Part shown: one piece after another, positions 3,025 through 58,964 of the stretch
How the letters are laid out: each line of letters begins with the position of its first letter
Position numbering within the stretch: the first letter of the stretch is position 1
NCBI GenBank assembly: GCA_041660005.1
Contig: JBAZXG010000004.1
Coordinates: 5,720 to 69,719 of the forward strand
Direction: 5' to 3'
Length of the DNA stretch: 64,000 nt
Source of the DNA: Patescibacteria group bacterium
GTDB taxonomy: Bacteria > Patescibacteriota > Patescibacteriia > GWA2-46-9
The notes under the pieces: model-generated
What the model was told of the DNA's origin: nothing
The model's database searches: none
Seen by the model: only the letters and a program-made list of their open reading frames with translations
Made by a program: the position numbers and the translations under genes

Positions 3025-3948
3025 TTAAACCGGTATATCGTAAATAACATTTTTTCGCTCAACCACAACGCGCCACTTTCTCTTTTTTGCTTCGGCGTAG
3101 AGGCCTGCCGTAGGATTAAAAGCAATTGCGTGGTCAACCAACTCGAGAAAACTGACGTCTGTTTCTGTGTCGCCTACTCCCCATGAGTCGTTGAACGATA
3201 AACCTTTCTCGGCAACAAAACTTTGCACAATTTCCGCCTTACTATCAACCGAACGGCGATCCAATATGCGCCCCGTGTAAACCCCCTTATTATCTACCTC
3301 GTATTCTGTCCCCCAGATGTAATCAAAGCCAAAATAAGCACCAAAGGGTCTTACCATTTCTGAGGGAGACCCGGAAACAGCCAAAAGTATATATTCACTG
3401 GCTAGTGTTTTTAAAAGATCACGGGTAAAGCGATAGACGCGGTCGCGACGCTGCAACAGAACAAGATTCACCGCAGCATCTACATACTTGCGCTCCTTGC
3501 CTTGCATGGCTTTCAAGTGCATTTCAACAACGCTACGAATGTAGTCATCGTAACTACCCCTCCGCTCAACCCAGGCAAAGTAAGCATCGAGTATCTGACC
3601 AAGAACGGACTCTGGAATAATGCCCGAACGCATCAGTCCCTTGTTAAATTCAACCAGTAAACTCGATCGAAAAACCGTTCCGTCAATATCGAAAATCGCT
3701 ATTTTATTTTTGCCAACACTTCGTCGGCTTGCCGCGAGGTTACCATATACTGAGGCAAAAATATCCCGCGTAGCTCCTTGACCGTCCGTAGCCCTAGGCG
3801 AAGGAGGTCCTTGACCCGCCGCATGCTTACTATGTCCCGCCGTAGTTTTATACGTAGGGGGAGCGAAGGAGGTTAGCGAAGTGGGATTACCCATGCATAC
3901 CCCGTCCACCCTGGGACGGGTTAGTTGACTTCTTTTATCTTCATGCAT
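3025..3948 (-). CDS. HAD-superfamily hydrolase (HAD-IB, phosphoserine-phosphatase-like). The start is uncertain because the N-terminus is low complexity.
   Basis: Motif I IAIFDIDGTV and a C-terminal GDTETDVSFLELVDHAIAFNP (HAD motif IV). Confidence 0.6.
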   Translation of the reverse strand: MHEDKRSQLTRPRVDGVCMGNPTSLTSFAPPTYKTTAGHSKHAAGQGPPSPRATDGQGATRDIFASVYGNLAASRRSVGKNKIAIFDIDGTVFRSSLLVEFNKGLMRSGIIPESVLGQILDAYFAWVERRGSYDDYIRSVVEMHLKAMQGKERKYVDAAVNLVLLQRRDRVYRFTRDLLKTLASEYILLAVSGSPSEMVRPFGAYFGFDYIWGTEYEVDNKGVYTGRILDRRSVDSKAEIVQSFVAEKGLSFNDSWGVGDTETDVSFLELVDHAIAFNPTAGLYAEAKKRKWRVVVERKNVIYDIPV

Positions 3949-3957
3949 ACTTGCACT

Positions 3958-4809
3958 CTACGCCTGGCAAAAAGAACAGTAAACCGTTCCGCGCCCGTTC
4001 TCCCGACTGCGCGTGAGGGACTTACCACATCGACGACACGGTTTGCCACCTCTGCCGTAGACGTTAAGGTAAGGCACAAATGAACTGTCTTTAGCATCCG
4101 TTTTTTGGTAGGTACTGCGAGTCGTTCCGCGATGCTTCACCGCCTGGATGAGCACACTACGAATTGCTTGATAGAGTCGTCGTCGTTCTAGGTTGGAGAA
4201 CGTGGGCAGTTTACGACCAGGACGAACGCCCGCACGAAAGCACGATTCGTCAACATAAATATTGCCAAGACCCGCCACGAATGTTTGGTTCAACAAAAAA
4301 CTTTTAACCGTCCCCGATCGTCGCTGAGTCATCCGTTCAAAAACCTGAAACGTAAACGAGCGAGACAACGGCTCAATACCTATTTTTTCAGTCAACTTTT
4401 TTGATGCGTCTTCGGTATACAGTCGAGCATACCCAAATTGCCGTACGTCGTTTACATAAAGCTCGTCCCCGCCGGCAAATCGCAGCGTAAGATGCGTGTA
4501 CTTGTTGGGTAATGCGGTTAATCCAGGCACTGCATGTCCGCCAAAAATAATTAACTTCTTATGGCGAAGAACAACCTGTCCGGTCATCTTAAGATGCACA
4601 TGCAAAGCACTTTTATTATCAAAAACAAAAACGAGTAACTTACCATACCGCTTTATACTGACGATCCGACGGCTTACAATTTTTTTAGCAAATCCCTTTT
4701 TGGGAGAAACAAACTTCGGTAAACCTATAACCACTTTTTTAACGCGCGCATCAATTAAATAGCGAGACAAATCTTTTCGCAAAGTCTCAACCTCGGGTAA
4801 TTCTGGCAT
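3958..4809 (-). CDS. mutM: Formamidopyrimidine-DNA glycosylase.
   Basis: Canonical MPELPEVE N-terminus (catalytic Pro2 and Glu3) and a C-terminal CxxC...CxxC zinc finger (CRRCG...CSFCQ). Confidence 0.9.
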   Translation of the reverse strand: MPELPEVETLRKDLSRYLIDARVKKVVIGLPKFVSPKKGFAKKIVSRRIVSIKRYGKLLVFVFDNKSALHVHLKMTGQVVLRHKKLIIFGGHAVPGLTALPNKYTHLTLRFAGGDELYVNDVRQFGYARLYTEDASKKLTEKIGIEPLSRSFTFQVFERMTQRRSGTVKSFLLNQTFVAGLGNIYVDESCFRAGVRPGRKLPTFSNLERRRLYQAIRSVLIQAVKHRGTTRSTYQKTDAKDSSFVPYLNVYGRGGKPCRRCGKSLTRSRENGRGTVYCSFCQA

Positions 4810-4850: not shown

Positions 4851-6407
4851 TTACAATTCTTGAAGTAGTGAGTGTCCGATCATGGCCGCTGGCTGCCTAA
4901 TATCAAGTAACGCCAATAGCGTAGGGGCAACATCACCCAGAACGCCGCCCTCAGCCAGCTTCTTTCCCTGCATGGACTTTCCGTAACAGCGAATAATAAG
5001 TGGCACCGGTGAAGCGGTATGTTTTGTAAGAATTGCCCCGTCAGTGGTGAGCATGCACTCAGCATTGCCATGATCCGCCGTAATCACTAGTGTTCCCTGA
5101 CGTGCTTCGAGCGCCTCATTGATGCGACCAAGGCAGCGATCAACCTCTTCAATGCCAACAATTGCCGCCGCAATATCCCCAGTGTGACCGAGCATGTCGG
5201 GATTCGCAAAGTTAACGACGATAACATCAAACTGCTGCTTTTGAAGCGCAGCTACGACAACATCGGTCACCGCAGACGCCGCCATCAGCGGGCGCTTTGC
5301 ATAACGAACGACATCGGGCGACAAAACTCGCTCCTGTGTTTCTCCGGCAACTTGGCCGGGATGACCACCGTTAAAAAAATATGTTACGTGCGCGAATTTT
5401 TCGCTCTCGCCAACATACAACTGACGAAGACCAGAAAGAAGCATAGGAAAAGTCTCTGTCACTTGAATCTCAGAGTATGCAGGAATAGCGCCTGGAAGCG
5501 ATGGACCATAATCAACAAGTGTTACGAAGCAGAGATCATGAAATGTACGCACAGCAAAAGCATCTTGATTGCCCTGTTCAAAATCAGTCTCTAAAAAGGC
5601 CTTACAAAGCTCGCGCGCTCGGTCAGGACGAAAATTGAAAAAAATAATCGCATCCCCGTCCTGAATACGCCCTTCCTCACCATTACCGTCGCTGTCAATA
5701 ATGGTCGGTGTTATAAACTCATCAGTTTCACCGCGCTTATAAGCCGCACGAAGACCCTGCAGAGCTTGAGACGCCCGCTCTCCTTCACCCAGAACAAGCG
5801 CATTGTATGCATGTTTAATTTGTTTCCAATCTTTTTTTCGATCCATGGCGTAAGCCCGACCAATAATGGTCACCACTTTTTCATGCGGTTGAAGCGAATC
5901 CACCAATACTTTAAGAAGACGCTCGCCATCGGTCGGCGAAGAATCACGCCCATCGGTAAACAAATGCAGGTATACATTTTGAATGCTTTGCTCTTTGCAA
6001 AAACGACGGAGTGCTGCCAAATGTTCAGGATTACTATGCGGACTGTCCGCTGTCGAAAGCAAACCCATAAGGTGCACTCGCCCGTTCCCCTTTTTGGCAT
6101 GCTCGGCTGCTTTTAAAAAAGCTGCATTGTTGAAAAAATTACCCTCTTGAATATCACGACTGATACGGCGTACCTGCTGCTCGACAATTCTGCCAGCACC
6201 AAGGTTCATGTGTCCGGCTTCAGAGTTTCCTGCTTCGCCGTCAAGGAGGCCCACCGCGGCACCTGAAGCCGCAAGTGCGGTCGTGACACCGTTTAGACTT
6301 ATGGCGTCAATGTTCGGCTTTTTGGCGCGTGCCACCGCATTGCCTTCGTTGTCCGAAGCAATACCATACCCATCTAAAATTGCGAGCACGAGTGGTGAGG
6401 TGTTCAT
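4851..6407 (-). CDS. gpmI: 2,3-bisphosphoglycerate-independent phosphoglycerate mutase.
   Basis: 518 aa. N-terminus LVLAILDGYG; iPGM metalloenzyme domain pattern throughout. Confidence 0.85.
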   Translation of the reverse strand: MNTSPLVLAILDGYGIASDNEGNAVARAKKPNIDAISLNGVTTALAASGAAVGLLDGEAGNSEAGHMNLGAGRIVEQQVRRISRDIQEGNFFNNAAFLKAAEHAKKGNGRVHLMGLLSTADSPHSNPEHLAALRRFCKEQSIQNVYLHLFTDGRDSSPTDGERLLKVLVDSLQPHEKVVTIIGRAYAMDRKKDWKQIKHAYNALVLGEGERASQALQGLRAAYKRGETDEFITPTIIDSDGNGEEGRIQDGDAIIFFNFRPDRARELCKAFLETDFEQGNQDAFAVRTFHDLCFVTLVDYGPSLPGAIPAYSEIQVTETFPMLLSGLRQLYVGESEKFAHVTYFFNGGHPGQVAGETQERVLSPDVVRYAKRPLMAASAVTDVVVAALQKQQFDVIVVNFANPDMLGHTGDIAAAIVGIEEVDRCLGRINEALEARQGTLVITADHGNAECMLTTDGAILTKHTASPVPLIIRCYGKSMQGKKLAEGGVLGDVAPTLLALLDIRQPAAMIGHSLLQEL

Positions 6408-7600
6408 AATGTCTGCTGGTGAGCAAGATCAAGTAATCGATTATACCTTACAATATGCTCGCCTCTTAGGAAACTTCCTAATTTCAAATACTCAGCGGAC
6501 ACAGCAAAACCAAAATCAACAAGAAAATCATCAATCGCTTCCGCATTAGGAGTAAGGAGCACGCGCGCCAAATTCATCCCTCGCGCCTGAACAGCATAGT
6601 CAAGCGCGTCACTCACTGTATCAAAGCACGCCAAATCAATAGCCGCCGCGCCGACCTCGTCACGAATGACGGCTTTCTCAAGAATAGCTGCATCTTTTGC
6701 CGCAAGATCATGACGCAAAAAAGTCACGCGGTTGGCAAAGTGGCGCTGAGCGTGACCATAAGCGTTATCAGTTTGAAAAGCGTTCTCAATCATGCCAATG
6801 GGGTAGCGACGAATGAGAGAGTGACAAAGTTGCAACATGGCAGTATCTTCTTTTTCCGGAAAAAATTCTGATGAAATCGCACGCTCGTCTTCCAGCACAC
6901 TCGCTTGACCAAAATCAACCGCAATACGAACATCACTATTACGCAGTCCAATTTTTTTTGCGCTGGCTACAATTGCCGTCAAAACTTCTTCAAGCGTTAT
7001 GTTTCTCCCTGATCCTCTCACTAAAGACGAATGCAAAACGACAGGCAATAAACGATGAAACGACGCCAACGTTTTCCTGGCAAGAGCCATGAGTGTAACG
7101 AGTGAACGTCTTGGCCCTTTTGAGGCGCGCGGGTTAATAGATAAACTGACTGTTTTAAAACCTTCTTCGGTGTTGTTTGAAAAAAACTCAAAAACAGGCA
7201 CGGGCAGCGCCCAGCCCGGCCCAGAGAATGGCGCGAATTCACGCAAATGCTGATGCAATTCTCGACCAGCAGCACGAGCGCCAACACGAGCGACTGCCTG
7301 AGAGACCGCCCGCGCGAGTAACCGCCCTGCCGCTGGATTCGCAAAAGACCGCACGAGTGAAACAATACGCCGATCAACTTCGTTTTGTTCAACAGTATCA
7401 ATGCCACGCAGTGCTTTGCGCAATTTCGTGTTGCCGAAATCAATAGCCGCATTGACCTTCGCATCACTTACTCCAACGCACGATACCGTAGCAGTTGCTG
7501 TTTGGCCAGTTAGTGTTTTAACCGTTGCCTTAATTGCTGCGTCGCCCTTACTATCAAACACCTCACGAAACAAAATGTCGTTAATGCCGGTAACCCGCAT
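6404..7600 (-). CDS. Enolase-superfamily paralog with degenerate catalytic residues (pseudo-enolase).
   Basis: Enolase-like N-terminus (FREVFDSKGDAAIKATV vs the enolase EIIDSRGNPTVE), PVPVFEF, YPIGMIENAF and a C-terminal RYNRLL. Metal ligands appear conserved, but the E211 (DEGG to RGSG), K345 (IKFNQ to LACFD) and H373 (SHRSGET to LLTPNAE) equivalents are lost. Confidence 0.6.
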   Translation of the reverse strand: MRVTGINDILFREVFDSKGDAAIKATVKTLTGQTATATVSCVGVSDAKVNAAIDFGNTKLRKALRGIDTVEQNEVDRRIVSLVRSFANPAAGRLLARAVSQAVARVGARAAGRELHQHLREFAPFSGPGWALPVPVFEFFSNNTEEGFKTVSLSINPRASKGPRRSLVTLMALARKTLASFHRLLPVVLHSSLVRGSGRNITLEEVLTAIVASAKKIGLRNSDVRIAVDFGQASVLEDERAISSEFFPEKEDTAMLQLCHSLIRRYPIGMIENAFQTDNAYGHAQRHFANRVTFLRHDLAAKDAAILEKAVIRDEVGAAAIDLACFDTVSDALDYAVQARGMNLARVLLTPNAEAIDDFLVDFGFAVSAEYLKLGSFLRGEHIVRYNRLLDLAHQQTL

Positions 7601-7611
7601 ACAACAGCAAA

Positions 7612-8856
7612 CTATTTAATTCTAAGGGGTGCCAATCCTGCTAGCTCTTTTCCTGAAAGAAACTGAAGCATGGCACCTCCACCAGTTGATCGACAGTCAA
7701 CATACTCTTCCATGCCCGTTGAACGAAGAACCTTCAATGTTTCGCCGCCACCCACAACACCAAAAGCTGGTCCTTCAGAACGAGCAGCAATCAACCAACC
7801 AAGCGCTCTGCTACCTTGAGCAAACACCGGTACTTCGAACATTCCTAAGGGGCCAGCCCAAACAATGGTTTGTGCTTTTTTGATAATACTCGCGTAACTG
7901 AGAACCGTTTTTGGACCAACATCGTAAATGGTCTCTGTAGGCCGAACCTTGTCTTTAGTACTAAAATCAACTAGCCGCGGAGCCGATTCCGGGCTTTTTG
8001 CCACAACCACATCTTCGGGTAAATGCATGAGTGGTATCAAACCAAGACCTGGGAAGCGGCGCTTTTCTTTTAAAAGTGCTTTTAATTTCCGGTATGACAC
8101 CGGAGTCGCTGCGGACGATTTTCCGATTGGTGTTTTGAGTATTTGCAAAAAAGTATTTGCCGGTCCCCCGCCTACCAAAATAGCGCTGGCGTGCTCGGCC
8201 AAATGCATCAACATCGGAATCTTATCTTCAACCTTGATGCCACCAACCATGAGGACAAAAGGCTTTTTAGGTCGCGAGCGAACGCCATCGAGCACATTGA
8301 TCTCACGCAGTAACTGCCAACCAGCATACGCTGGCAAGCGCTTCGCCACACCCAGCATAGAGGCATGCGCGCGATGAGTGTTAGAAAAACATTCGTTCAT
8401 ATAAACGTCCCCCAAGGTGGCCAAGGCATCACAAAACGCCGGATCATTTTTTTCTTCCCCTTGGTAAAACCGCATGTTCTCCAAAGCAAGCAGATGCCCG
8501 GGGACTATCCGCTTCGTTATGGCGGCTACTTTACGAAAATCGCGAACCTCAGTAAAAGCAACGTTACCAACGTCAGGAGGGAGGAGTGTTTGCAAGTGAC
8601 TGATAACGGGCTTCAGCGACATGCGCGCTACTTTGTGCCCCTTGGGTCGCCCCAGATGTCCGATGAGTACAATGCGCGCTCGGGCTCGAGAGAGACGAAC
8701 AATGGTTGGTACCAACTGCTGCAGGCGAAAGTCATCTGCTACCTCTAAAACACCGCGAGCATTTTTTGCAAGCGGAACATCGAATGCACCGCGTAGGAGC
8801 ACCCTTTTGCCGGCAAGTTTAGCATCATCAGTAATCGTCCGAAGCGCGCGTTGCAT
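7612..8856 (-). CDS. pgk: Phosphoglycerate kinase.
   Basis: 414 aa. N-terminal LAGKRVLLRGAFDVPL; PGK hinge and C-domain motifs. Confidence 0.9.
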   Translation of the reverse strand: MQRALRTITDDAKLAGKRVLLRGAFDVPLAKNARGVLEVADDFRLQQLVPTIVRLSRARARIVLIGHLGRPKGHKVARMSLKPVISHLQTLLPPDVGNVAFTEVRDFRKVAAITKRIVPGHLLALENMRFYQGEEKNDPAFCDALATLGDVYMNECFSNTHRAHASMLGVAKRLPAYAGWQLLREINVLDGVRSRPKKPFVLMVGGIKVEDKIPMLMHLAEHASAILVGGGPANTFLQILKTPIGKSSAATPVSYRKLKALLKEKRRFPGLGLIPLMHLPEDVVVAKSPESAPRLVDFSTKDKVRPTETIYDVGPKTVLSYASIIKKAQTIVWAGPLGMFEVPVFAQGSRALGWLIAARSEGPAFGVVGGGETLKVLRSTGMEEYVDCRSTGGGAMLQFLSGKELAGLAPLRIK

Positions 8857-8925
8857 AGTGAAAATAGTGTAGCACTTTTAATTCTTACCCGTCAGTATGA
8901 AAAAACTATCCTACGAAATACAGAA

Positions 8926-8958
8926 AACCTGCTCTCGAGCAGGTTTCACTGTTTTTTA
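8926..8958. terminator. Palindromic hairpin terminator between pgk and gapA. It implies separate transcription units for gapA and pgk-enoL-gpmI.
   Basis: 20-nt perfect palindrome aacctgctctcgagcaggtt with T-rich tracts on both strands. Confidence 0.6.
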
Positions 8959-9975
8959 GCGAATTGTTTTACCCACTAGCTCCGCCATTTCAACTAAACG
9001 ATTTACGTAGCCCCACTCATTGTCATACCAAGCAATGACTTTGAGTAGGTCGCCGTCAACTACCATGGTAAGTCCAAGATCAACAATAGCCGAATGACTA
9101 TTGCCCACAATATTTGAAGAGACTAACGCCTCATCAGTTACCGCCAGAATACCTTTCCAGCGTTCTTGCTCTGCTGCTTTACGAAAGGCTTCATTCACTT
9201 CTTCTTTAGTTGTAGGTCTATTCAATAAAAACGTAAAATCAGTGAGTGAACCGACAGGAAGCGGCACACGCAATGCTAGGCCGTCAAATTTTCCCTTGAG
9301 TTCTGGAATAACTTCGGTAGTCGAAACAGCAGCGCCAGTAGTTGTCGGTATGATATTAATAGCCGCCGCACGAGCTCTGCGAAGATCTTTGTGGAGGGGT
9401 GGAGTGGAACCGTCAACCAAGTTTTGTTCTGCGGTATAGGAATGCACCGTCGTTATAACCGCCTTTTTGATACCAAAAACATCCTCAATAACAGTGGTCA
9501 CTGGCGCAACGCAATTTGTGGTACATGACGCATTGGAAACAATGGCGTCACCGCTGTACGTTTCATCATTGACTCCCAAAAGATAGGTTTTGGTATCGCC
9601 CCCCTTGGTTGGCGCAGAAACGACAACACGCTTTGCCCCGGCTGCTAAGTGCGCTTTGGCTGCATCGTCACGCGTGAAACGACCAGTACACTCAAGAACT
9701 ATATCAATCCCTAATTCTTTCCAGGGCAATTTCGCAGGATCTTTCTCGGTAAAAACTTTGCACGGAACACCATCGACAACAATTTCATTTTCATTAAAAC
9801 TTACCGAAAATGGTGCCTTACCGTAAACAGAGTCATATTTCAATAAATGCGCATGCGTTTCCGTGTCCGTTGTATCGTTAATCGCAACAATATTCAGACC
9901 TTTATTACCATGTGCAACGCGAAACGCAGCACGACCTACTCGACCAAACCCGTTAATGGCAACCTTTAGAGCCAT
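8956..9975 (-). CDS. gap: Glyceraldehyde-3-phosphate dehydrogenase.
   Basis: INGFGRVGR Rossmann motif; ASCTTNCVAPV active-site Cys motif. Confidence 0.95.
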   Translation of the reverse strand: MALKVAINGFGRVGRAAFRVAHGNKGLNIVAINDTTDTETHAHLLKYDSVYGKAPFSVSFNENEIVVDGVPCKVFTEKDPAKLPWKELGIDIVLECTGRFTRDDAAKAHLAAGAKRVVVSAPTKGGDTKTYLLGVNDETYSGDAIVSNASCTTNCVAPVTTVIEDVFGIKKAVITTVHSYTAEQNLVDGSTPPLHKDLRRARAAAINIIPTTTGAAVSTTEVIPELKGKFDGLALRVPLPVGSLTDFTFLLNRPTTKEEVNEAFRKAAEQERWKGILAVTDEALVSSNIVGNSHSAIVDLGLTMVVDGDLLKVIAWYDNEWGYVNRLVEMAELVGKTIR

Positions 9976-9993: not shown

Positions 9994-10593
9994 TTATTGA
10001 CCAATAGCGTAGCGTACGAAACGCTTTATTTTTACATTCTCCCCCACTTTTGCCGTTATGGCAACCAGGAGGTCTTTCACTTTCTGTGTGTCGTCCTTAA
10101 TTGACGGCTGTTCAAGCAATACGTCTGCTTCAATAAATTTAGCAAAGCTACCCTCTAAAATCTTTGCAACGATTGCTTCATCTTTCCCGGCGAGCTTACC
10201 TTCGGTCGCAAGTCTTTCGCGAGCGAGCGCTAACTCGTTCGTTTTTACTTCCTCTGGTACGTCTTCTGCAGAAAGATAACGCGGGTCAGTGGCTGCAACT
10301 TGAAGTGCAACGTCATGAACAAATTGCTGAAAATCTTCATTTCTTGCTACAAAATCTGTTTCACACGCTACCTCAACCATCACACCAACTCGCCCATTGC
10401 CATGAACATAGGTGTGTATAAGACCCTCGGTAGTGGCACGGTCCTGTTTCTTCAATGCTTTGGCCTGACCGCGCTTGCGCAATAGTTCCAGTGCCTTATC
10501 TTGGTCACCATTTGCTTCTTGAAGTGCTTTGTGAATATCATTCATGCCCGCTCCGGTTTCACGACGAAGCGCTACGATCATGTCTTTTGTCAT
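9994..10593 (-). CDS. tsf: Elongation factor Ts (short form).
   Basis: N-terminal UBA-like LRRETGAGMNDIHKAL; a core of about 200 aa. Confidence 0.85.
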   Translation of the reverse strand: MTKDMIVALRRETGAGMNDIHKALQEANGDQDKALELLRKRGQAKALKKQDRATTEGLIHTYVHGNGRVGVMVEVACETDFVARNEDFQQFVHDVALQVAATDPRYLSAEDVPEEVKTNELALARERLATEGKLAGKDEAIVAKILEGSFAKFIEADVLLEQPSIKDDTQKVKDLLVAITAKVGENVKIKRFVRYAIGQ

Positions 10594-10646
10594 AGTACTA
10601 ACATTTAAAAATTAACATTTCCCCTCCCACAAAACCCAACCGAACG

Positions 10647-11408
10647 CTAAGCAACAGGTTTGATCGGTGCTGGCGCCACAATGCTAACTCGACGAGCCTG
10701 ACCCCGTAAGACCGCAGCTGCCACTTGGTCGATCATGAGTTTCAGCGCACCAACGGCGTCATCATTCGATGCTATAGGATACTGCACTTGATCCGGGTTC
10801 GCATTGGTGTCACAAAGTGCGGCAATCGGCACACCAATTTTGTTGGCCTCACTAATCGCGGTTCGCTCACGGCGGACATCAATCAAAAATATGGCCTCAG
10901 GAATTTTATCCAGTTTTGCAATGCCGCCAATAACGCCTTCCAACCGATTATATTCTCGCTCACGCTCCAAGCGCTCTTTCTTGGTCATGTTCTCAAATGA
11001 GTTCTGTTCAATCATGCGCCCCAGTTCTTTGTGACGGGCAATCATTTTGCCAATAACGCTAAAGTTCGTCAGCATGCCGCCGATCCAACGATCGTGAACG
11101 TAAGGCATACCTACTCCTTCCGCAGCCGACTTTACATAACTTTGTATTTGCTTCTTTGTGCCGACAAAGAGCACATTGCCGCCGTTGGCGACCACATCCT
11201 CAATAAAATTTACCGCCCGCTCCAATTGCTGTCGTGTAGCTTCAAGATTAATGATGTGTACACCCTGGCGCGAAGTAAAAATAAACGGACGCATCTTTGG
11301 GTACCATTTTGAGGTCAAATGACCAAAATGAACGCCGGCTTTCAGCATCTCTAAAATGCTGGGTAGCGCGCCGTGTTGTTTTCTTTCGGTAACCTGTATT
11401 TCTGCCAT
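10647..11408 (-). CDS. rpsB: 30S ribosomal protein S2. The likely ATG start is MAEIQV at 11408; the track ORF runs to 11414 through a TTG.
   Basis: GVHFGHLTSKWYPKM S2 signature; rpsB-tsf synteny. Confidence 0.9.
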   Translation of the reverse strand: MAEIQVTERKQHGALPSILEMLKAGVHFGHLTSKWYPKMRPFIFTSRQGVHIINLEATRQQLERAVNFIEDVVANGGNVLFVGTKKQIQSYVKSAAEGVGMPYVHDRWIGGMLTNFSVIGKMIARHKELGRMIEQNSFENMTKKERLEREREYNRLEGVIGGIAKLDKIPEAIFLIDVRRERTAISEANKIGVPIAALCDTNANPDQVQYPIASNDDAVGALKLMIDQVAAAVLRGQARRVSIVAPAPIKPVA

Positions 11409-11430
11409 AAACAATTAAAGAAAATTAAGT

Positions 11431-54221: not shown

Positions 54222-55409
54222 CTAGTCGTAAAGCCGAATGAGTTCGTTAAATTTGTCTAGCCGTTCGTGTATTGGTACGCCGATCTTGAGGCCATACGCC
54301 CCACCGGCCTTAGCCAGGTGAACAATAAAAGCGTCATTAGTTTCTCCGGATCGATGTGAGACTATCGTTTTAATGCCATGCTTTCTCGCGATATTCACGG
54401 AAGCGCATGCTTCACTGACTGAGCCAACTTGATTCGGCTTAATGATAACCCCGCTAATGCTATGAGCCAGTTTTTCTATTCGTTTAGGGTTTGTCACAGT
54501 TAAATCGTCGCCCACAATGAGTTTATTCGGGAATTTTTCCTTAGATTGCCTAAAACCATTTTCGTCGTCTTCTGAAAAATGATCTTCTATAGAAACGAGC
54601 TCAGGCACACGTTTAAAATAATCTTTGTAAACAGCTAAAAGCTCTACCGTAGAAAGTTTCTTCCCTCCAAAATGATAAGCCCCGCTGCGGTAAAATTCAG
54701 AGGCGGCTACATCTAACCCTAAACGAAATGTATAGCCACCCCTTACTTTGGCAACAGCCCGCTGCAATAACGTAAGAGGTGTTAAATTATCTTTGAAGTC
54801 ATACGAGTAACCGCCTTCGTCACCAATCGCTAAGTTCGAAATGTTATATTTCTTTTTAGTCAAATCTCCAAGCAAGCGATAGACAGAGGAAAGCTCTTGC
54901 GTTAACTCAGCGTAGGTTGACTTAACTCTGGCAATAATCATGTACTCCTGAATGTCTAGACTGTTGGTGGCATGCGCTCCCCCGTTAATGGTATTTGAAA
55001 AAATGAGCGGCCTTGTCTCCTGAACACCTTTAAAAAATTCTTTTCGCAACACTTCCCATGGTGCCTTTTTTTGTTCGTCCGCCAAAGCTCGCACAAAAGC
55101 AATCGAGCACCCAAGGATAACGTTGCCGCCTAATTTTTCTTTACGCGACGTTGGGTCAAGCGAGAGTAAGACAGAGTCAAACTGCTGAACGCTACTAAAA
55201 TTTTTACCGAGAACGTATTTTTCTATTTTCAAAACTGATTTTTTCGCGGCAGAAAAGTCGAAGATACTCGCTTCAAGACTGCCGCAACTAGCTCCCGCCG
55301 GCACGCTAGCAAGAAACGACTTACTGTTATGTCCTTGCAGTTCAATTTCAATCGTTGGATTACCGCGAGAATCAAAAATTTTACGTACCTTCAATTCTTT
55401 TACTCTCAT
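54222..55409 (-). CDS. eno: Enolase, canonical with the catalytic residues present.
   Basis: IFDSRGNPTIEIEL, IGDEGGY, IIKPNQVGSVSE, SHRSGETND and a terminal LKIG are all present. Confidence 0.9.
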   Translation of the reverse strand: MRVKELKVRKIFDSRGNPTIEIELQGHNSKSFLASVPAGASCGSLEASIFDFSAAKKSVLKIEKYVLGKNFSSVQQFDSVLLSLDPTSRKEKLGGNVILGCSIAFVRALADEQKKAPWEVLRKEFFKGVQETRPLIFSNTINGGAHATNSLDIQEYMIIARVKSTYAELTQELSSVYRLLGDLTKKKYNISNLAIGDEGGYSYDFKDNLTPLTLLQRAVAKVRGGYTFRLGLDVAASEFYRSGAYHFGGKKLSTVELLAVYKDYFKRVPELVSIEDHFSEDDENGFRQSKEKFPNKLIVGDDLTVTNPKRIEKLAHSISGVIIKPNQVGSVSEACASVNIARKHGIKTIVSHRSGETNDAFIVHLAKAGGAYGLKIGVPIHERLDKFNELIRLYD

Positions 55410-56446
55410 AGGTTTGTAACTATGTTTTTCGACTTCCCGTCATAAAACGCATGAATATTATCATAGGTAATTCCCATGATGCGCTCCATGGCCTCCTGCG
55501 TATTGAAAGCATTGTGCGGACTCACCAGTACATTTGGCATCGACATCAGCACATGATTTTCAAAAGCAATCTTGAACTTATCCGATGAGACACCAGCGTT
55601 TTTCAAAAACGTGAACTCATCGCTGATTTCCCCTTCTTCCTCGAGTACATCAAGTGCTGCACCAGCCAACGTGCCGTCGTTCAATGCGCGTACCAAAGCA
55701 TCAGTCTCCACGAGTCCTCCTCGAGCGGTGTTGATCAAATAGGCACCTTTTTTCATGATGCCAATATTCGTTGCATTAATGAGGTGATGCGTATTTTTAT
55801 TATACGGCGCGTGCAAGGTAACGACGTCGGACGAGCGCAGTAGTTCTTCCATGCTCACGAAACGAAAACCCATGTCTTTAGCAACTAGCTCGTCAGGCGT
55901 CGGATCATGGGCAAGAACGTTCATACCAAACCCGAGTGCAATGTGCACCGCTACCATGCCAATGCGACCAGTACCAACAATACCTATCGTTTTCCCTTTA
56001 AGATCAGTACCCCGCAATCCGTCTGGAGAAAACGGTCCCGATTCTTTAACGCGATGAATCGCTTGGTAAATATTTCGGGTTAAGCTCAGCAGTAATCCAA
56101 AAGCATACTCGGCAACCGTATGGTCTCCATATCCAGGGACATAGGTAACGGCCACACCTCGATTTTTACAAGCTACAAGGTCAATGTGGTCATACCCCGT
56201 TGAACGAGCTGCAATGAGCTTGAGCTTAGGCAGCTTATCTAACTCCGCTGCCGTAACTTCAGAATGAACAAAAATAGAAACAACTTCGAGCTTTACAGCA
56301 ATCTCAGGGCTAACCGACGACAGTGACTCTCTGCTGAAATAAATCTCTGCACCAGGAAATTCTTTTTGAATCTGCGCTTCTTCCCATCCTTCAAGATCAA
56401 AAAAACCTATCACTCCCTTCTGGTCGATTGCATCAGCTGCTTTCAT
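55406..56446 (-). CDS. D-isomer-specific 2-hydroxyacid dehydrogenase (D-lactate / phosphoglycerate dehydrogenase family).
   Basis: NAD-binding GIVGTGRIGMVAVHIALGFGMNV and a catalytic R/E/H region (TARGGLVETDAL...SPHNAF). Confidence 0.8.
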   Translation of the reverse strand: MKAADAIDQKGVIGFFDLEGWEEAQIQKEFPGAEIYFSRESLSSVSPEIAVKLEVVSIFVHSEVTAAELDKLPKLKLIAARSTGYDHIDLVACKNRGVAVTYVPGYGDHTVAEYAFGLLLSLTRNIYQAIHRVKESGPFSPDGLRGTDLKGKTIGIVGTGRIGMVAVHIALGFGMNVLAHDPTPDELVAKDMGFRFVSMEELLRSSDVVTLHAPYNKNTHHLINATNIGIMKKGAYLINTARGGLVETDALVRALNDGTLAGAALDVLEEEGEISDEFTFLKNAGVSSDKFKIAFENHVLMSMPNVLVSPHNAFNTQEAMERIMGITYDNIHAFYDGKSKNIVTNL

Positions 56447-56447
56447 A

Positions 56448-58904
56448 CTAGCGTCGACGCTTGCGTCGCAATAAAGACCTATTCTTTTTTTCGTGCTCGG
56501 CTATCACAATAGTCATATCAAGAACAGCATCAGGATTAAGCGAAATGCTTTCGATACCCTGATCAACTAAAAACTTTCCGAACTCAGGGTAGTCAGAAGG
56601 AGCCTGCCCGCAAATACCAATATATTTTTTACGCCGTAAACATGCCTGAATAGCCCGCACCACCATTTCTTGAAGAGCCGGGCTCTTTTCATTGCCCACA
56701 TGAGCCACGATGCCCGAGTCTCTATCTAAACCGAGTGTTAACTGTGTTAAGTCGTTGGAACCGATGGACATGCCGTCAAAAATATCTAGGAATGCATCTG
56801 CCTGAATAACATTTGACGGAATTTCACACATGACATAAATTCTCAGTTTTCGGTCTGTTGTTTTAGAGAGGCCGTGCTTGGCCATGACCGCTATAACTTT
56901 TTTTCCTTCTTCAGGAGTTCGGCAAAATGGCACCATCGGAAGAACATTAGTGAGCCCCATCTCATTTCTGACCCTGATCAAGGCCTCACATTCCAGACCA
57001 AACGCTTCGGCAAATTTAGGATCGTAGTAACGTGAAGCGCCCCTCCATCCCAGCATTGGATTTTCCTCAATCGGTTCATAGCGCTCTCCGCCAAGTAGGG
57101 TTCGGTATTCGTTCGTCTTAAAATCCGAAAAGCGAATAATTACTTCATGCGGCCAAAAGGTCGCACCAATTTTAGCTATACCCTCTGATAATTTATCAAC
57201 GTAGTACTTAGACTTCTTGGTATAGCCAACCGTCAATGCGTCAATTTCTGAAACTAAACGACGGGCCTTAACGTCTTTTTTTGCTTCTCGCTTCAATTTC
57301 GTATATTCGATTAAGGCATTGGGGTGAACCTTCACATGTGCGGCAATAATAAACTCGAGGCGTCCAAGACCTACCCCCTCAGCCGGCGAGGCGTGGTACT
57401 GGAAAGCGCCGTCGGGCGACGCCAAAATCATCATTACTTTTGTTTTTGTTTTTGGAATTTGTTTGAGGCTCCTCTTTGAAACTGAGAACGGCAACTCCCC
57501 GGCGTACACAATTCCCGATTCTCCGGATGAGCAATCGATCGTTACCGGCATACCATTCTTCAACACTGCGGTAGCATTATTAGTTCCGACGATGCAGGGA
57601 ATACCCAATTCACGCGACACAATAGCCGCATGACTAGTGCGCCCACCCTTGTCGGTAACAATAGCCGAAGCTATTTTCATGATGGGCTCCCAATCAGGAT
57701 CAGTAATGCCCGTCACCAATACCTCTCCTTTTTGGAAAGTACTCATTTGCTTCGCACTTTTAATCGCTCGCACTTTGCCTACGGCTACCTTAGAACCTAC
57801 TGCAATGCCGTTCACCAGCACTTTACCTTTACGCTTTAAGGTGTAAGTAATTTGCACACTGGCGTCCGCCATGGCGTGAACCGTTTCTGGCCGCGCTTGC
57901 ACAATATACAGTTTTCCATTTTTGCCATCTTTTGCCCACTCAATATCCATGGGCTGATAGTGACCGCGTTTTTTGGAAAAATATTTTTCAATCTCGACAC
58001 ACCAACGTCCTAACTGCAAGACCTCTCGGTCCGTTAAACAATACTTCTGACGATCTGCCGGTGCTACGTTCACTTGCTTAATGCCGGTCTTGGCATAAAT
58101 CATCTTGACCTTTTTTGAGCCCAAGGTCCTGGAAATAATCGCCTGCTTCCCAGCGGCGAGCGTTGGTTTAAAAACGGTAAACTCATCTGGAGTCACCTTG
58201 CCTTGCACCACCATTTCGCCTAAACCGTAAGACCCCGTAATCGACACCACTTTATCAAACCCTGTTTCTGTATGAATAGTAAAGGCAACACCGCTTGCAG
58301 CGAGATCAGATCGAACCATTATCTGCACGCCAACAGACAAGGCAATTTTGGTGTGGGAGAAACCCTTATCAGCTCGGTATGAAATAGCGCGATCGGTAAA
58401 AAGTGAAGCAAAGCAGCGTCGCGTAGCATCGAGAACGGCTGCAGTTCCCTGCATATTCAAGAACGTCTCCTGTTGGCCGGCAAAGGAAGCGCCGGGTAAA
58501 TCTTCGGCTGTGGCAGAAGAACGAATCGCCACGTCAATACGTTTACCAAAACGACGTTCAAGCTCTTGGTAACCCGCAATAATTTCTTTCTCTAAATCTT
58601 CTGGGAATGAAGTTTTTAAAAAAAGATCGCGAACCTGCTTGCCGCGATGCTGCAAATCAACAACCCGCCGGGTATCTAACCCCTTAAGAATTTCGGTAAT
58701 ACGCCGGTCAATGCTGTTGTGACGAACAAAATACTGATAGGCATGAGCGGTAATAGCAAAACCATCTGGCACCTTAACACCCTTAGGAACAAGCGCCGCA
58801 TAGAGTTCACCGAGCGCCGCATTTTTTCCTCCAACATAGGGCACATCTTCTATTGCGAGTTCTCGAAACGAAATAGTCAAACGTTCGGCTTTCTTCTGAG
58901 TCAT
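56448..58904 (-). CDS. ppsA: Phosphoenolpyruvate synthase (pyruvate, water dikinase). The likely start is the MTQKK Met.
   Basis: N-terminal ATP-grasp (VPYVGGKNAALGELY), the phospho-His domain GGRTSHAAIVSRELGIPCIVG, and a C-terminal PEP-utilising domain (SIGSNDLTQLTLGLDRDS). Confidence 0.85.
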   Translation of the reverse strand: MTQKKAERLTISFRELAIEDVPYVGGKNAALGELYAALVPKGVKVPDGFAITAHAYQYFVRHNSIDRRITEILKGLDTRRVVDLQHRGKQVRDLFLKTSFPEDLEKEIIAGYQELERRFGKRIDVAIRSSATAEDLPGASFAGQQETFLNMQGTAAVLDATRRCFASLFTDRAISYRADKGFSHTKIALSVGVQIMVRSDLAASGVAFTIHTETGFDKVVSITGSYGLGEMVVQGKVTPDEFTVFKPTLAAGKQAIISRTLGSKKVKMIYAKTGIKQVNVAPADRQKYCLTDREVLQLGRWCVEIEKYFSKKRGHYQPMDIEWAKDGKNGKLYIVQARPETVHAMADASVQITYTLKRKGKVLVNGIAVGSKVAVGKVRAIKSAKQMSTFQKGEVLVTGITDPDWEPIMKIASAIVTDKGGRTSHAAIVSRELGIPCIVGTNNATAVLKNGMPVTIDCSSGESGIVYAGELPFSVSKRSLKQIPKTKTKVMMILASPDGAFQYHASPAEGVGLGRLEFIIAAHVKVHPNALIEYTKLKREAKKDVKARRLVSEIDALTVGYTKKSKYYVDKLSEGIAKIGATFWPHEVIIRFSDFKTNEYRTLLGGERYEPIEENPMLGWRGASRYYDPKFAEAFGLECEALIRVRNEMGLTNVLPMVPFCRTPEEGKKVIAVMAKHGLSKTTDRKLRIYVMCEIPSNVIQADAFLDIFDGMSIGSNDLTQLTLGLDRDSGIVAHVGNEKSPALQEMVVRAIQACLRRKKYIGICGQAPSDYPEFGKFLVDQGIESISLNPDAVLDMTIVIAEHEKKNRSLLRRKRRR

Positions 58905-58964
58905 AATGAAAATACAGTTAATAGGTGCTAATAGTATAGCAGAACAAAGTCGGACGACCAAAAG

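What the first reader, a model, noticed from the sequence alone, without database searches (positions are those of the whole stretch)
6404..7600. Degenerate enolase paralog embedded in the glycolytic operon where tpiA would be expected
The gene between pgk and gpmI clearly has an enolase fold (N-terminal FREVFDSKGDAAIKATV, PVPVFEF, YPIGMIENAF, C-terminal RYNRLL). The Mg-ligand equivalents appear retained. The catalytic acid/base positions are replaced: DEGG to RGSG (E211), IKFNQ to LACFD (K345) and SHRSGET to LLTPNAE (H373). A canonical enolase with all these residues exists elsewhere in the window at 54222-55409. The order gapA-pgk-X-gpmI resembles the Firmicute gapA-pgk-tpiA-pgm-eno operon, but X is this pseudo-enolase and no triose-phosphate isomerase is present in the window. 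It could be a moonlighting, regulatory or structural enolase (compare RNA-degradosome or surface enolases), or a neofunctionalised member of the enolase superfamily.
Basis: partly seen in the sequence, partly recalled or inferred. Interest (0 to 1): 0.7.

Follow-up and report, generated by a model that had tools for sequence, protein, structure and literature searches.

The report
Dead enolase kept in glycolytic operon
The gene between pgk and gpmI is a full-length enolase relative that has lost the enolase catalytic machinery; it sits where related bacteria keep their working enolase, and at least eight related uncultivated lineages have kept it, so it probably has a non-catalytic job.

Summary
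ORF 6404-7600 (-) encodes a 398-aa protein with a confidently predicted enolase fold. It lacks both active-site loops and residues E168, E211, K345, H373, R374 and S375. A fully equipped enolase lies at 54222-55409, and no TPI gene is in the window.

The "tpiA slot" reading does not hold. In related Patescibacteria (CPR) the gene after pgk and before pgm is a canonical enolase, and tpiA lies elsewhere. X is therefore the in-place descendant of the operon enolase.

X belongs to a small family found here in eight lineages, always after pgk, and before pgm and/or fpg wherever the contig reaches that far. The family groups together in a distance tree, apart from the roughly 400-aa "short" CPR enolases that supply the active copy in this genome and its closest relative. 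No catalytic residue or metal ligand is invariant across the family, but new motifs are conserved (HLREFAPFSGPGW, INPRASxGxRRS).

Best reading: a pseudoenzyme left after a second enolase took over catalysis, kept for an unidentified non-catalytic role. An analogous case has been described for archaeal enolase paralogs.

It is a new variant of a known kind, of moderate interest.

The parts
6404..7600 (-). X: 398-aa enolase-derived protein lacking the enolase catalytic machinery (NCBI: hypothetical protein WC817_03415, Patescibacteria group bacterium)
   Evidence: ORF. Pfam Enolase_N/C. TIGR01060 96 bits vs cut-off 300. AF2 and Foldseek enolase fold. Residue mapping.
7211..7249 (-). Family-specific motif 1, residues 118-130 (HLREFAPFSGPGW), in the linker between the N-terminal domain and the barrel
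   Evidence: H118, F122, A123, P124, G127, P128, G129 and W130 are invariant in four core lineages that share about 31% overall identity, and are rare or absent in canonical enolases.
7103..7138 (-). Family-specific motif 2, residues 155-166 (INPRASKGPRRS): a basic insertion after the strand that carries E168 in true enolases
   Evidence: Conserved as INPRASRGPRRS, VNRREARGQSRN and INPRPARGARRS in the other core lineages; R165 is invariant.
6635..6637 (-). Codon of D322, at the position of the catalytic base K345
   Evidence: Alignments; sequence.
6551..6553 (-). Codon of T350, at the position of H373 (SHRSGET becomes LTPNAEA)
   Evidence: Alignments.
7612..8856 (-). pgk, immediately upstream of X (11-nt spacer)
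   Evidence: Pfam PGK 334 bits. pgk precedes X in all eight lineages.
4851..6407 (-). gpmI (full-length cofactor-independent phosphoglycerate mutase); its start overlaps the X stop (ATGA)
   Evidence: Pfam Metalloenzyme and iPGM_N; overlap seen.
8956..9975 (-). gapA
   Evidence: Pfam Gp_dh_N/C.
9994..11414 (-). tsf and rpsB, the upstream part of the conserved block rpsB-tsf-gap-pgk-X
   Evidence: The best promoter-like site, 11543-11515 (-), lies upstream of rpsB.
3958..4809 (-). fpg, the conserved downstream neighbour (pgk-X-[pgm]-fpg)
   Evidence: fpg is seen in six of the eight lineages. The contigs of the other two (L057/L063, L079) end inside the pgm-like gene. Also found after the canonical eno-gpmI of L021.
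54222..55409 (-). Active-type 'short' CPR enolase (395 aa) with all 12 catalytic and ligand residues
   Evidence: The ortholog P0058 lies in the same synteny in Uhrbacteria CG10_48_11.
55406..58961 (-). D-2-hydroxyacid dehydrogenase and PEP synthase/PPDK-type dikinase, clustered with the active enolase
   Evidence: Pfam; conserved cluster.

Best explanation
X is the in-place descendant of the enolase that CPR bacteria normally encode between pgk and pgm.

In the ancestor of a Uhrbacteria-like clade, enolase catalysis passed to a second gene. That gene is a 'short' CPR-type enolase, about 400 aa long, clustered with a PEP dikinase and a lactate-type dehydrogenase. The operon copy then lost its two active-site loops, its acid/base residues and eventually its metal ligands.

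It was not deleted. It has been inherited vertically as an intact, tightly coupled ORF with new conserved motifs. The most likely reading is a pseudoenzyme that keeps a non-catalytic (ancillary or moonlighting) function of the ancestral enolase. This would probably be a protein-protein or anion-binding role, co-expressed with pgk.

- **Shown:** enolase ancestry and fold, loss of the catalytic set, positional equivalence with canonical operon enolases, grouping of the family in a distance tree and its retention across lineages, and coexistence with a complete enolase in two genomes.
- **Inferred:** the order of events (displacement, then decay), purifying selection, and the non-catalytic function itself.
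For: **1. Fold and ancestry.** Only enolase matches are found. The family member P0337 still scores 284 bits on TIGR01060 while lacking 9 of 12 key residues.

**2. The slot is the enolase slot.** Sixteen loci recovered with the window's PGK have pgk-eno-pgm with canonical residues. L021 has eno-gpmI-gpmI-fpg.

**3. X is closer to operon enolases than to other enolases.**
- X scores 74-89 bits against most of these operon enolases, 51 against a Bacillus-type enolase, and shares only 18% identity with its own genome's enolase.
- It keeps segments and indel states that the short type lacks.

**4. Family in eight lineages, always after pgk.**
- Window, CG10_48_11 and L067: rpsB-tsf-gap-pgk-X-gpmI-fpg-HAD-NUDIX-yceG-AAK.
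- L056: the same block without gpmI.
- P0151 and P0156: pgk-X-mini-iPGM-fpg with 1-7-nt spacers.
- P0221 and P0238: pgk-X-mini-iPGM, on contigs that end before any fpg.
- Sources.

**5. Tree and vertical inheritance.**
- In a neighbour-joining tree the seven X-like proteins included (L067 was found later) are monophyletic in 200/200 bootstraps. The short enolases form a separate clade, also 200/200.
- PGK identity to the window is 71% for CG10 and 44-52% for the other X-bearing loci, against 37-39% for three relatives with a canonical operon enolase. This pattern is congruent with vertical inheritance.

**6. Loss of catalysis.** No catalytic residue or metal ligand is invariant in the family: D246 becomes R in L067, and E295 becomes Q or I.

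**7. Signs of constraint.**
- The ORF is intact in all lineages.
- 57 positions are invariant in four core lineages at about 31% identity, and 15 of these are family-specific.
- The one pair that could be measured gives dN/dS 0.25.

**8. Both enolase loci are syntenic in CG10_48_11.** They therefore coexisted in the common ancestor of that genome and the window's.

**9. Precedent.** In Methanococci and Thermococci, the in-situ enolase paralog evolves fast while a relocated copy is proposed to keep glycolysis. The authors interpret this as subfunctionalisation (PMC4390880).
Against: - X is the fastest-evolving gene of its neighbourhood: 50% identity against 57-85% for neighbours, and 30% against 52-74% in a deeper comparison. 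That is also what slow decay would look like.
- The dN/dS estimate rests on only 17 substitutions.
- A second, active enolase is documented in only two of the eight lineages. The other contigs are too short to tell.
- No partner, ligand or expression data exist.
- No clear Shine-Dalgarno sequence precedes X.
- Monophyly of fast-evolving sequences in a distance tree could be inflated by long-branch attraction.
Confidence: 0.6

Rival explanations
1. X is a relic in slow decay. It became redundant once the short enolase took over, has no function, and persists only because deletion has not yet happened or because its translation is needed for coupled expression of the downstream gene.
For: It has the highest divergence in the neighbourhood. 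No catalytic or metal residue is conserved. The partner genes vary: gpmI is absent in L056 and is a truncated mini-iPGM in subgroup 2.
Against: Full-length ORFs of 385-430 aa, with no frameshifts or stops, persist in eight lineages whose PGKs have diverged to 44% identity. CPR genomes are small and streamlined. Family-specific motifs are invariant at about 31% overall identity. The single dN/dS estimate is 0.25. The AF2 model is confident.
Confidence: 0.17
2. X is a neofunctionalised enzyme or ligand-binding protein. It would use a rebuilt pocket, for example the conserved basic motifs, to act on or sense a phosphorylated glycolytic intermediate. The extreme version is a non-homologous replacement for triose-phosphate isomerase.
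For: It sits in a glycolytic operon. It carries new conserved Arg-rich motifs. Six of eight members are basic, pI 8.7-9.2. The window protein keeps D246, E295, an Asp next to D320, and K396. No tpiA is present in the window or within 10 kb of the CG10 ortholog.
Against: Every metal ligand and acid/base position varies within the family, so the defining chemistry of the enolase superfamily has no conserved basis. Both mobile active-site loops are deleted in most members. TIM is reported as essentially universal in CPR and lies elsewhere in relatives. The slot belongs to enolase, not TPI.
Confidence: 0.12
3. X is a regulatory 'prozyme': a dead paralog that forms a hetero-oligomer with the active short enolase and modulates it.
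For: Enolases are obligate dimers (established knowledge). Dead paralogs that activate their catalytic partners are known in trypanosomatids (abstracts of PMC5201418 and PMC3663545, listed). Both genes coexist in two genomes.
Against: X and the short enolase share only 18% identity and lie about 47 kb apart in different gene clusters. The top 120 of about 8,000 matches to the window's short enolase include members named Paceibacterota, Minisyncoccia and Parcubacteria, whereas X-like proteins were found in only eight lineages. The short enolase therefore does not appear to need X. X is coupled to pgk, not to eno.
Confidence: 0.08
4. X is still an active enolase with an unorthodox active site.
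For: The fold is retained. Two metal ligands and K396 are present in the window protein.
Against: K345, E211, E168, H373, R374, S375, the S39 loop and the H159 loop are all lost. The surviving residues are not conserved in orthologs. TIGR01060 scores 96 bits against a cut-off of 300.
Confidence: 0.03

Closest known systems
Canonical enolase / phosphopyruvate hydratase (TIGR01060; Pfam PF03952 and PF00113; e.g. PDB 3qn3, 1e9i/2fym), in particular the enolase of CPR pgk-eno-pgm operons
   Same: Same two-domain fold (TM about 0.8). Same genomic slot after pgk. Shared C-terminal signature (DDF.VD...AEY.K.G...YNRLL) with CPR operon enolases. The family member P0337 scores 284 bits on TIGR01060.
   Different: Both active-site loops are deleted or replaced. 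The general base K345, acid E211, and E168, H373, R374 and S375 are lost. The metal triad is not conserved in the family. The window protein scores 96 bits against a cut-off of 300. It carries new motifs HLREFAPFSGPGW and INPRASxGxRRS.
Archaeal in-situ enolase paralogs of Methanococci and Thermococci (arCOG01170 branch; probably NCBIfam NF006223/PRK08350), described in PMC4390880
   Same: Same evolutionary pattern. The copy that keeps the ancestral gene context evolves fast and is proposed to have given up glycolysis, while a second copy elsewhere keeps it. The authors invoke subfunctionalisation with retention of an ancillary function. In both cases the ancestral context includes the ribosomal protein S2 gene.
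   Different: Independent origin, bacterial CPR rather than archaeal. X gives no NF006223 match at E<=1, and family members reach at most 38 bits against a cut-off of 624. The context here is a glycolytic operon (gap-pgk-X-pgm), not Rpo6-S2. The equivalence of NF006223 to arCOG01170 is my assumption and was not tested.
Catalytically dead paralogs acting as partners ('prozymes': trypanosomatid AdoMetDC prozyme and DHS paralog; PMC5201418, PMC3663545)
   Same: An enzyme homolog without catalytic residues, retained alongside an active paralog.
   Different: No evidence here for hetero-oligomerisation. X is not clustered with its active paralog. The enzyme family and domain of life differ.
Firmicute central glycolytic operon cggR-gapA-pgk-tpiA-pgm-eno (from general knowledge)
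   Same: gapA-pgk followed by further lower-glycolysis genes, including pgm.
   Different: In this lineage the gene after pgk is enolase (or X), not tpiA. tpiA lies several kb away or elsewhere. The resemblance that suggested a 'tpiA slot' is superficial.
Tau-crystallin / alpha-enolase recruited as a lens structural protein (from general knowledge)
   Same: An enolase-fold protein used for a non-catalytic, structural purpose.
   Different: Tau-crystallin is the same gene product as active enolase (gene sharing), not a degenerate paralog, and it is eukaryotic.

Membership tests
Enolase (phosphopyruvate hydratase, EC 4.2.1.11) | Two-domain enolase fold (N-terminal cap plus modified TIM barrel), with homology to PF03952 and PF00113 | tested here: met
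   Pfam 41 and 47 bits, both above gathering thresholds. AF2 pLDDT 83. Foldseek top 50 hits are all enolases, TM 0.77-0.83.
Enolase (phosphopyruvate hydratase, EC 4.2.1.11) | Equivalog-level score on TIGR01060 (cut-off 300 bits) | tested here: not met
   96 bits. Family members score 71-284 bits. The window's active-type short enolase also scores just below the cut-off (278), so this criterion alone is weak.
Enolase (phosphopyruvate hydratase, EC 4.2.1.11) | Catalytic base K345 and acid E211, plus E168 and H373 | tested here: not met
   K345 becomes D, E211 becomes S or V, E168 becomes T or S, and H373 becomes T in X. All differ again in orthologs.
Enolase (phosphopyruvate hydratase, EC 4.2.1.11) | Substrate-phosphate and second-Mg site: the S39 loop (SGASTG), the H159 loop (GGxHA), R374 and S375 | tested here: not met
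   Both loops are deleted or replaced. R374 becomes P and S375 becomes N.
Enolase (phosphopyruvate hydratase, EC 4.2.1.11) | Metal triad D246 / E295 / D320 | tested here: inconclusive
   In X, D229 and E272 are kept, and D320 aligns to H297 with D298 adjacent. Across the family, D246 becomes R (L067), E295 becomes Q or I, and D320 is variable.
Enolase (phosphopyruvate hydratase, EC 4.2.1.11) | Conversion of 2-phosphoglycerate to phosphoenolpyruvate | not testable with these tools
   Requires an enzyme assay.
Enolase superfamily (MR/MLE-type acid-sugar dehydratases, racemases) | Conserved metal ligands at the ends of barrel strands 3-5 plus a family-specific acid/base pair; Pfam MR_MLE domains | tested here: not met
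   X has no MR_MLE, PF13378 or PF07476 hit. The ligand positions are not conserved in the family.
Archaeal in-situ enolase paralog (NF006223 / PRK08350; arCOG01170) | Sequence membership (NF006223 cut-off 624 bits) | tested here: not met
   X has no hit at E<=1. P0337 scores 38 bits, and P0151 and P0156 score 16-18 bits.
Archaeal in-situ enolase paralog (NF006223 / PRK08350; arCOG01170) | Evolutionary pattern: the copy in the ancestral context is accelerated, and a second copy elsewhere is conserved | tested here: met
   compared with the description in PMC4390880. This is a 'works like' resemblance, not membership.
Triose-phosphate isomerase | Homology to TPI (PF00121-type barrel, about 250 aa) | tested here: not met
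   X matches only enolase families. The TPI profile and E. coli TpiA find nothing in the window.
Pseudoenzyme (general definition) | Clear homolog of an enzyme that lacks the residues required for catalysis | tested here: met
Pseudoenzyme (general definition) | Expressed, and retained by selection for a non-catalytic function | tested here: inconclusive
   Intact ORFs in eight lineages, conserved new motifs, and dN/dS 0.25 from one pair. No expression or interaction data exist.

The most novel reading that the evidence does not exclude
X represents an old, vertically inherited bacterial pseudo-enolase family in which the ancestral enolase's non-glycolytic (moonlighting) function has been separated from catalysis. 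That function is carried by a new conserved basic surface (HLREFAPFSGPGW plus INPRASxGxRRS). The surface would bind a partner protein such as PGK or a ribonuclease, or an anionic ligand such as RNA or a phospho-metabolite. If so, this would be a natural separation-of-function allele for studying why enolase is so often recruited to non-glycolytic complexes. It would also be a bacterial parallel to the archaeal in-situ enolase paralogs.
Probability: 0.4. Interest if true: 0.6.

Novelty: new variant of a known kind. Interest (0 to 1): 0.45.

Why it matters
- **Annotation.** IMG and UniRef label these proteins 'enolase', while NCBI calls them hypothetical. In CPR metabolic reconstructions, such a hit would wrongly be counted as a working enolase, or as a second one. 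Enolase presence is already reported as patchy in CPR.
- **Evolution.** It is a clear bacterial case of a second enolase taking over catalysis while the original gene stays in place. It parallels what was proposed for Methanococci and Thermococci.
- **Biology.** Streamlined CPR genomes have kept a 1.2-kb dead enzyme gene while PGK diverged to 44% identity. That argues for an unrecognised non-catalytic role of the enolase scaffold, coupled to pgk. The role can be tested with simple biochemistry.

Tried and rejected
1. **TPI replacement.**
   - No TPI is in the window or near the CG10 ortholog.
   - The idea was rejected as an explanation because the slot is the enolase slot in relatives and TIM is near-universal in CPR.
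   - Whole-genome absence could not be tested.
2. **Extending the 141.8-kb contig beyond the window.** Only short Logan contigs (3.3 and 11.8 kb) were returned.
3. **Third word-indexed homolog search, using the family profile.** It was swamped by canonical enolases and recovered only three of the seven input members. The profile search of representatives and the metagenome scan were what found new members.
4. **Population-level dN/dS.** Five of six contig sets were identical at the DNA level. Only L057/L063 was informative, with 17 substitutions.
5. **Recent duplicate of the window's own enolase.** Rejected: 18% identity, different indel states, and separate clades.
6. **Membership of other enolase-superfamily branches or of NF006223.** No supporting hits.
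7. **Literature.** No paper on CPR or bacterial pseudo-enolases was found. The archaeal precedent was found.
8. **Rfam.** No RNA family is present in the window.
9. **Net charge.** Six of eight members are basic, but CPR operon enolases span pI 4.6-9.5, so this is weak evidence.
Full report
**1. What is at the coordinates**

The minus strand carries a compact gene series: rpsB (10647-11414), tsf (9994-10593), gapA (8956-9975), pgk (7612-8856), X (6404-7600), gpmI (4851-6407) and fpg (3958-4809). A HAD hydrolase, a NUDIX hydrolase, yceG and an amino-acid-kinase-fold gene follow.

X starts 11 nt after the pgk stop. Its stop overlaps the gpmI start in ATGA. The best promoter-like site lies upstream of rpsB, and a 10-bp hairpin sits between gapA and pgk. 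No Rfam family is present anywhere in the window.

The exact protein is in NCBI as 'MAG: hypothetical protein WC817_03415 [Patescibacteria group bacterium]', on a 141.8-kb contig.

**2.

X matches only enolase models:
- Pfam Enolase_N at 41 bits and Enolase_C at 47 bits.
- TIGR01060 at 96 bits against a cut-off of 300.
- 68 PDB sequence matches, all enolases, best 3qn3 at E=1.6e-17.
- An AlphaFold2 model built on a seven-sequence family alignment has pLDDT 83 and pTM 0.84. Its 50 best Foldseek PDB hits are all enolases, with TM 0.77-0.83 and 17-22% identity.

Three independent alignments (HMMER pairwise, MAFFT, and hmmalign to a canonical profile) agree on the losses:
- The SGASTG loop (S39) and the GGxHA loop (H159) are gone.
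- E168, E211, K345 (now D322), H373 (now T350), R374 and S375 are replaced.

D246 (D229) and E295 (E272) remain. D320 aligns to H297, with D298 beside it. K396 is kept as K373.

The substance is correct.

The enolase at 54222-55409 has all 12 checked residues. No TPI is detectable in the window, either with E. coli TpiA or with a profile that includes CPR TPIs.

**3. The slot is the enolase slot, not the tpiA slot**

I used the window's PGK to fetch 49 loci from species-representative genomes. Those with informative record titles are mostly CPR (Falkowbacteria, Uhrbacteria, unclassified Patescibacteria); several carry uninformative or non-CPR titles.

Sixteen of these loci have this order: pgk, sometimes a roughly 255-aa membrane protein, a canonical 420-430-aa enolase, then a phosphoglycerate mutase-type gene. 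In eleven of them tpiA lies about 5 kb further downstream. Most of these operon enolases have all 12 key residues. L021 continues eno-gpmI-gpmI-fpg, the same downstream neighbour as in the window.

By contrast, pgk-tpiA adjacency appears in the Bacillaceae, Geobacteraceae and Clostridia loci of the same set.

X scores 74-89 bits against most of these operon enolases, 51 against a Bacillus-type enolase, and is only 18% identical to the window's own enolase. It also shares with them the AEY(L/I)K and RGE(R/H) signatures and their indel states, which the window's own enolase lacks.

**4. The active enolase belongs to a different clade**

The 395-aa enolase at 54222-55409 belongs to a very large clade of roughly 400-aa enolases. 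The named members are Patescibacteria, Paceibacterota, Minisyncoccia and Parcubacteria. 117 of the 120 best hits keep all 12 residues.

It sits in a cluster of PEP dikinase, D-2-hydroxyacid dehydrogenase and enolase. That cluster is syntenic in Candidatus Uhrbacteria CG10_48_11, where P0058/COV04_03625 lies on the same contig as the X ortholog COV04_03440. Both enolase genes were therefore present in the common ancestor of these two genomes.

Enolase in CPR has been reported as patchy and phylogenetically incongruent, with lateral transfer, whereas TIM, GAPDH and PGK are essentially universal (PMC7304191).

**5. X is one member of a small, old family**

The word-indexed search of 5.8 billion clusters found only one close relative, P0002 (50% identity, Uhrbacteria CG10_48_11), in identical synteny. 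A profile search of 1.84 billion representatives, plus a metagenome scan, added more.

| Member | Identity to X | Length | Gene context |
|---|---|---|---|
| P0149/P0337 | 30% | 430 aa | rpsB-tsf-gap-pgk-X-fpg-HAD-NUDIX-yceG-AAK, no gpmI |
| L067 | 31% | 399 aa | full synteny including gpmI, on a 180-kb contig |
| Subgroup 2: P0151, P0156 | 20-25% | 394-395 aa | pgk-X-(272-aa iPGM core)-fpg, spacers of 1-7 nt |
| Subgroup 2: P0221, P0238 | 20-25% | 385-395 aa | pgk-X-(iPGM core), on contigs that end before any fpg |

In a neighbour-joining tree the seven X-like proteins included (L067 was found later) are monophyletic in 200/200 bootstraps. They are placed beside a subset of CPR operon enolases. 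The short enolases form a separate 200/200 clade. Long-branch attraction is a caveat for a distance tree of fast-evolving sequences.

Independent support comes from shared loop deletions, the shared EH..KYNRLL ending, the shared insertion after the E168 strand, and shared synteny.

PGK identity to the window falls in step: 71% for CG10, 52% for L056 and L067, 44-47% for subgroup 2, and 37-39% for three relatives with a canonical operon enolase. This fits a single origin followed by vertical inheritance.

**6. Catalytically dead, yet constrained**

Across the eight lineages no catalytic residue or metal ligand is invariant. For example, D246 becomes R in L067, E295 becomes Q or I, K396 becomes E, S, R or D, and K345 becomes D, Q, N, T or R (it remains K in two subgroup-2 members). 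This argues against any conserved enolase-superfamily chemistry.

P0337 is instructive. It still scores 284 bits on TIGR01060 and keeps the loops, but has lost 9 of 12 key residues.

X is the fastest-evolving gene of its neighbourhood:

| Comparison | X identity | Neighbouring genes |
|---|---|---|
| Window vs CG10 | 50% | 57-85% |
| Window vs L056 | 30% | 52-74% |

Signs of constraint remain:
- Every lineage has an intact 385-430-aa ORF with a conserved start (MRVT.I in three of the four core lineages).
- 57 positions are invariant among the four core lineages, which share about 31% identity.
- 15 of those are family-specific. They are concentrated in HLREFAPF(S/A)GPGW (residues 118-130), plus R165 in the basic insertion INPRASKGPRRS, R264, R346 and E370.
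- The one population pair with differences gives 9 synonymous and 8 non-synonymous changes, dN/dS 0.25. This is weak evidence.
- Six of eight members are basic, pI 8.7-9.2. This is also weak.

**7. Most likely explanation**

The operon enolase became redundant for catalysis once the short enolase was present. It lost its active site, but was retained for a non-catalytic property of the enolase scaffold.

Shown here are ancestry, position, loss of the catalytic set, retention, and coexistence with a complete enolase in two genomes. The order of events, the selection, and the nature of the retained function are inferred.

The same logic was proposed for archaeal enolase paralogs. There the in-situ copy, next to the S2 and Rpo6 genes, evolves fast and is thought to keep only an ancillary function, while a relocated copy keeps glycolysis (PMC4390880). 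X is not a member of that archaeal family: it gives no NF006223 hit and family members reach at most 38 bits against a cut-off of 624. This is a parallel, not a shared origin.

The constant, tightly coupled upstream neighbour is pgk. The downstream pgm varies: full iPGM, iPGM core only, or absent. If a partner exists, PGK is therefore the first candidate. This is speculation.

**8. Rivals**

- **Slow decay without function (about 0.17).** It fits the high rate, but not the intact ORFs and conserved new motifs over this depth of divergence in streamlined genomes.
- **A new enzyme or ligand binder, including a TPI substitute (about 0.12, TPI itself about 0.02).** No conserved catalytic or metal residues support it.
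- **A prozyme-type regulator of the short enolase (about 0.08).** It is not supported by gene linkage, or by the far wider occurrence of short enolases than of X-like proteins in these searches.
- **Residual enolase activity (about 0.03).** Very unlikely.

**9. Novelty and score**

I found no description of this family. Public labels are 'hypothetical protein' (NCBI) or 'enolase' (IMG, UniRef).

Degenerate enolases as such are not rare. 55 of the 149 other proteins matching the X profile lack at least 3 of 12 key residues. That list is biased towards divergent sequences and includes a few fragments.

This is a new variant of a known kind: a pseudoenzyme arising through paralog displacement, with an archaeal enolase precedent.

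It matters for CPR metabolic annotation and as a possible natural separation of enolase's catalytic and non-catalytic roles. Interest is moderate, 0.45.

Noticed in passing
window 54222-58961 (-); L078 3540-8200: The active 'short' enolase (395 aa) overlaps a D-2-hydroxyacid dehydrogenase gene by 4 nt, and a PEP synthase/PPDK-type dikinase gene sits immediately upstream of that. This forms a PEP-to-pyruvate-to-lactate module. The wider block (metG, cvpA, tatD, the dikinase, the dehydrogenase, eno, a uvrD-like helicase, then pheS and pheT) is syntenic in Uhrbacteria CG10_48_11. The short enolase clade is very large and scores just under the TIGR01060 cut-off (278 vs 300).
   Followed up: partly
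L058 3233-4051; L059 1844-2662; L060 2437-3255; L007 10586-11476 and similar in L012, L014, L016-L018, L020, L025, L026, L042, L045, L049-L051: Many CPR pgk-eno/X operons are followed by a 272-300-aa 'mini-iPGM'. In L058 it matches only the N- and C-terminal parts of cofactor-independent phosphoglycerate mutase and lacks the iPGM_N transferase domain. Whether such a protein can act as a mutase is unclear.
   Followed up: partly
L016 8118-9449; L018 8086-9495; L020 2622-3929; L045 8135-9448; L049 5984-7297; L051 5382-6716: A subgroup of operon enolases keeps the acid/base and metal residues but has a rewritten first active-site loop (SGASTG becomes VGL(K/Q)xS, so S39 becomes K, T or Q) and S375 becomes G. 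In the NJ tree this subgroup, with L012, is the nearest neighbour of the dead family.
   Followed up: no
P0150 (888 aa): A tandem double enolase in one polypeptide. The C-terminal copy looks canonical. The N-terminal copy lacks the SGASTG loop and has VMPDR in place of IKxNQ.
   Followed up: no
representative proteins P0149-P0297: 55 of the 149 other proteins matching the X profile lack three or more of 12 key enolase residues. A few of these are fragments. Degenerate enolase-like proteins appear to be a recurrent, largely unannotated phenomenon in metagenomes, and several distinct residue patterns recur.
   Followed up: partly
L056 8001-10137 (also L061, L062, L066): In the P0149/P0337 lineage the X ortholog is followed directly by fpg. 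The gpmI gene seen at this position in the window, CG10 and L067 is absent.
   Followed up: no
L021 9389-12519: Two iPGM-like reading frames lie in tandem after the canonical operon enolase. Both are full-length by score: 424 and 382 bits against the window's GpmI.
   Followed up: no
L009 8194-8958; L019 8311-9072; L021 6441-7220: A conserved membrane-anchored protein of about 255 aa sits between pgk and the canonical enolase in several relatives. By eye it resembles the SIMPL/DUF541 type, but this was not checked against Pfam. It is absent from the X-bearing loci.
   Followed up: no
L072 2-624: An otherwise canonical enolase next to gpmI is split over two reading frames on a 2.2-kb metagenome contig. 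This is either a frameshift or an assembly error.
   Followed up: no
window 8924-8947 (both strands): A 9-10-bp palindromic hairpin lies in the 99-nt gap between gapA and pgk. It is called terminator-like on both strands, and could be an attenuator or processing site that separates rpsB-tsf-gapA from pgk-X-gpmI.
   Followed up: no
window 3025-3948 (-): The HAD-family ORF is 307 aa, against 229-238 aa in the orthologs. Only about 227 residues align, so the first roughly 80 residues (Pro/Gly/Ala-rich) may reflect an upstream start call rather than real protein.
   Followed up: no
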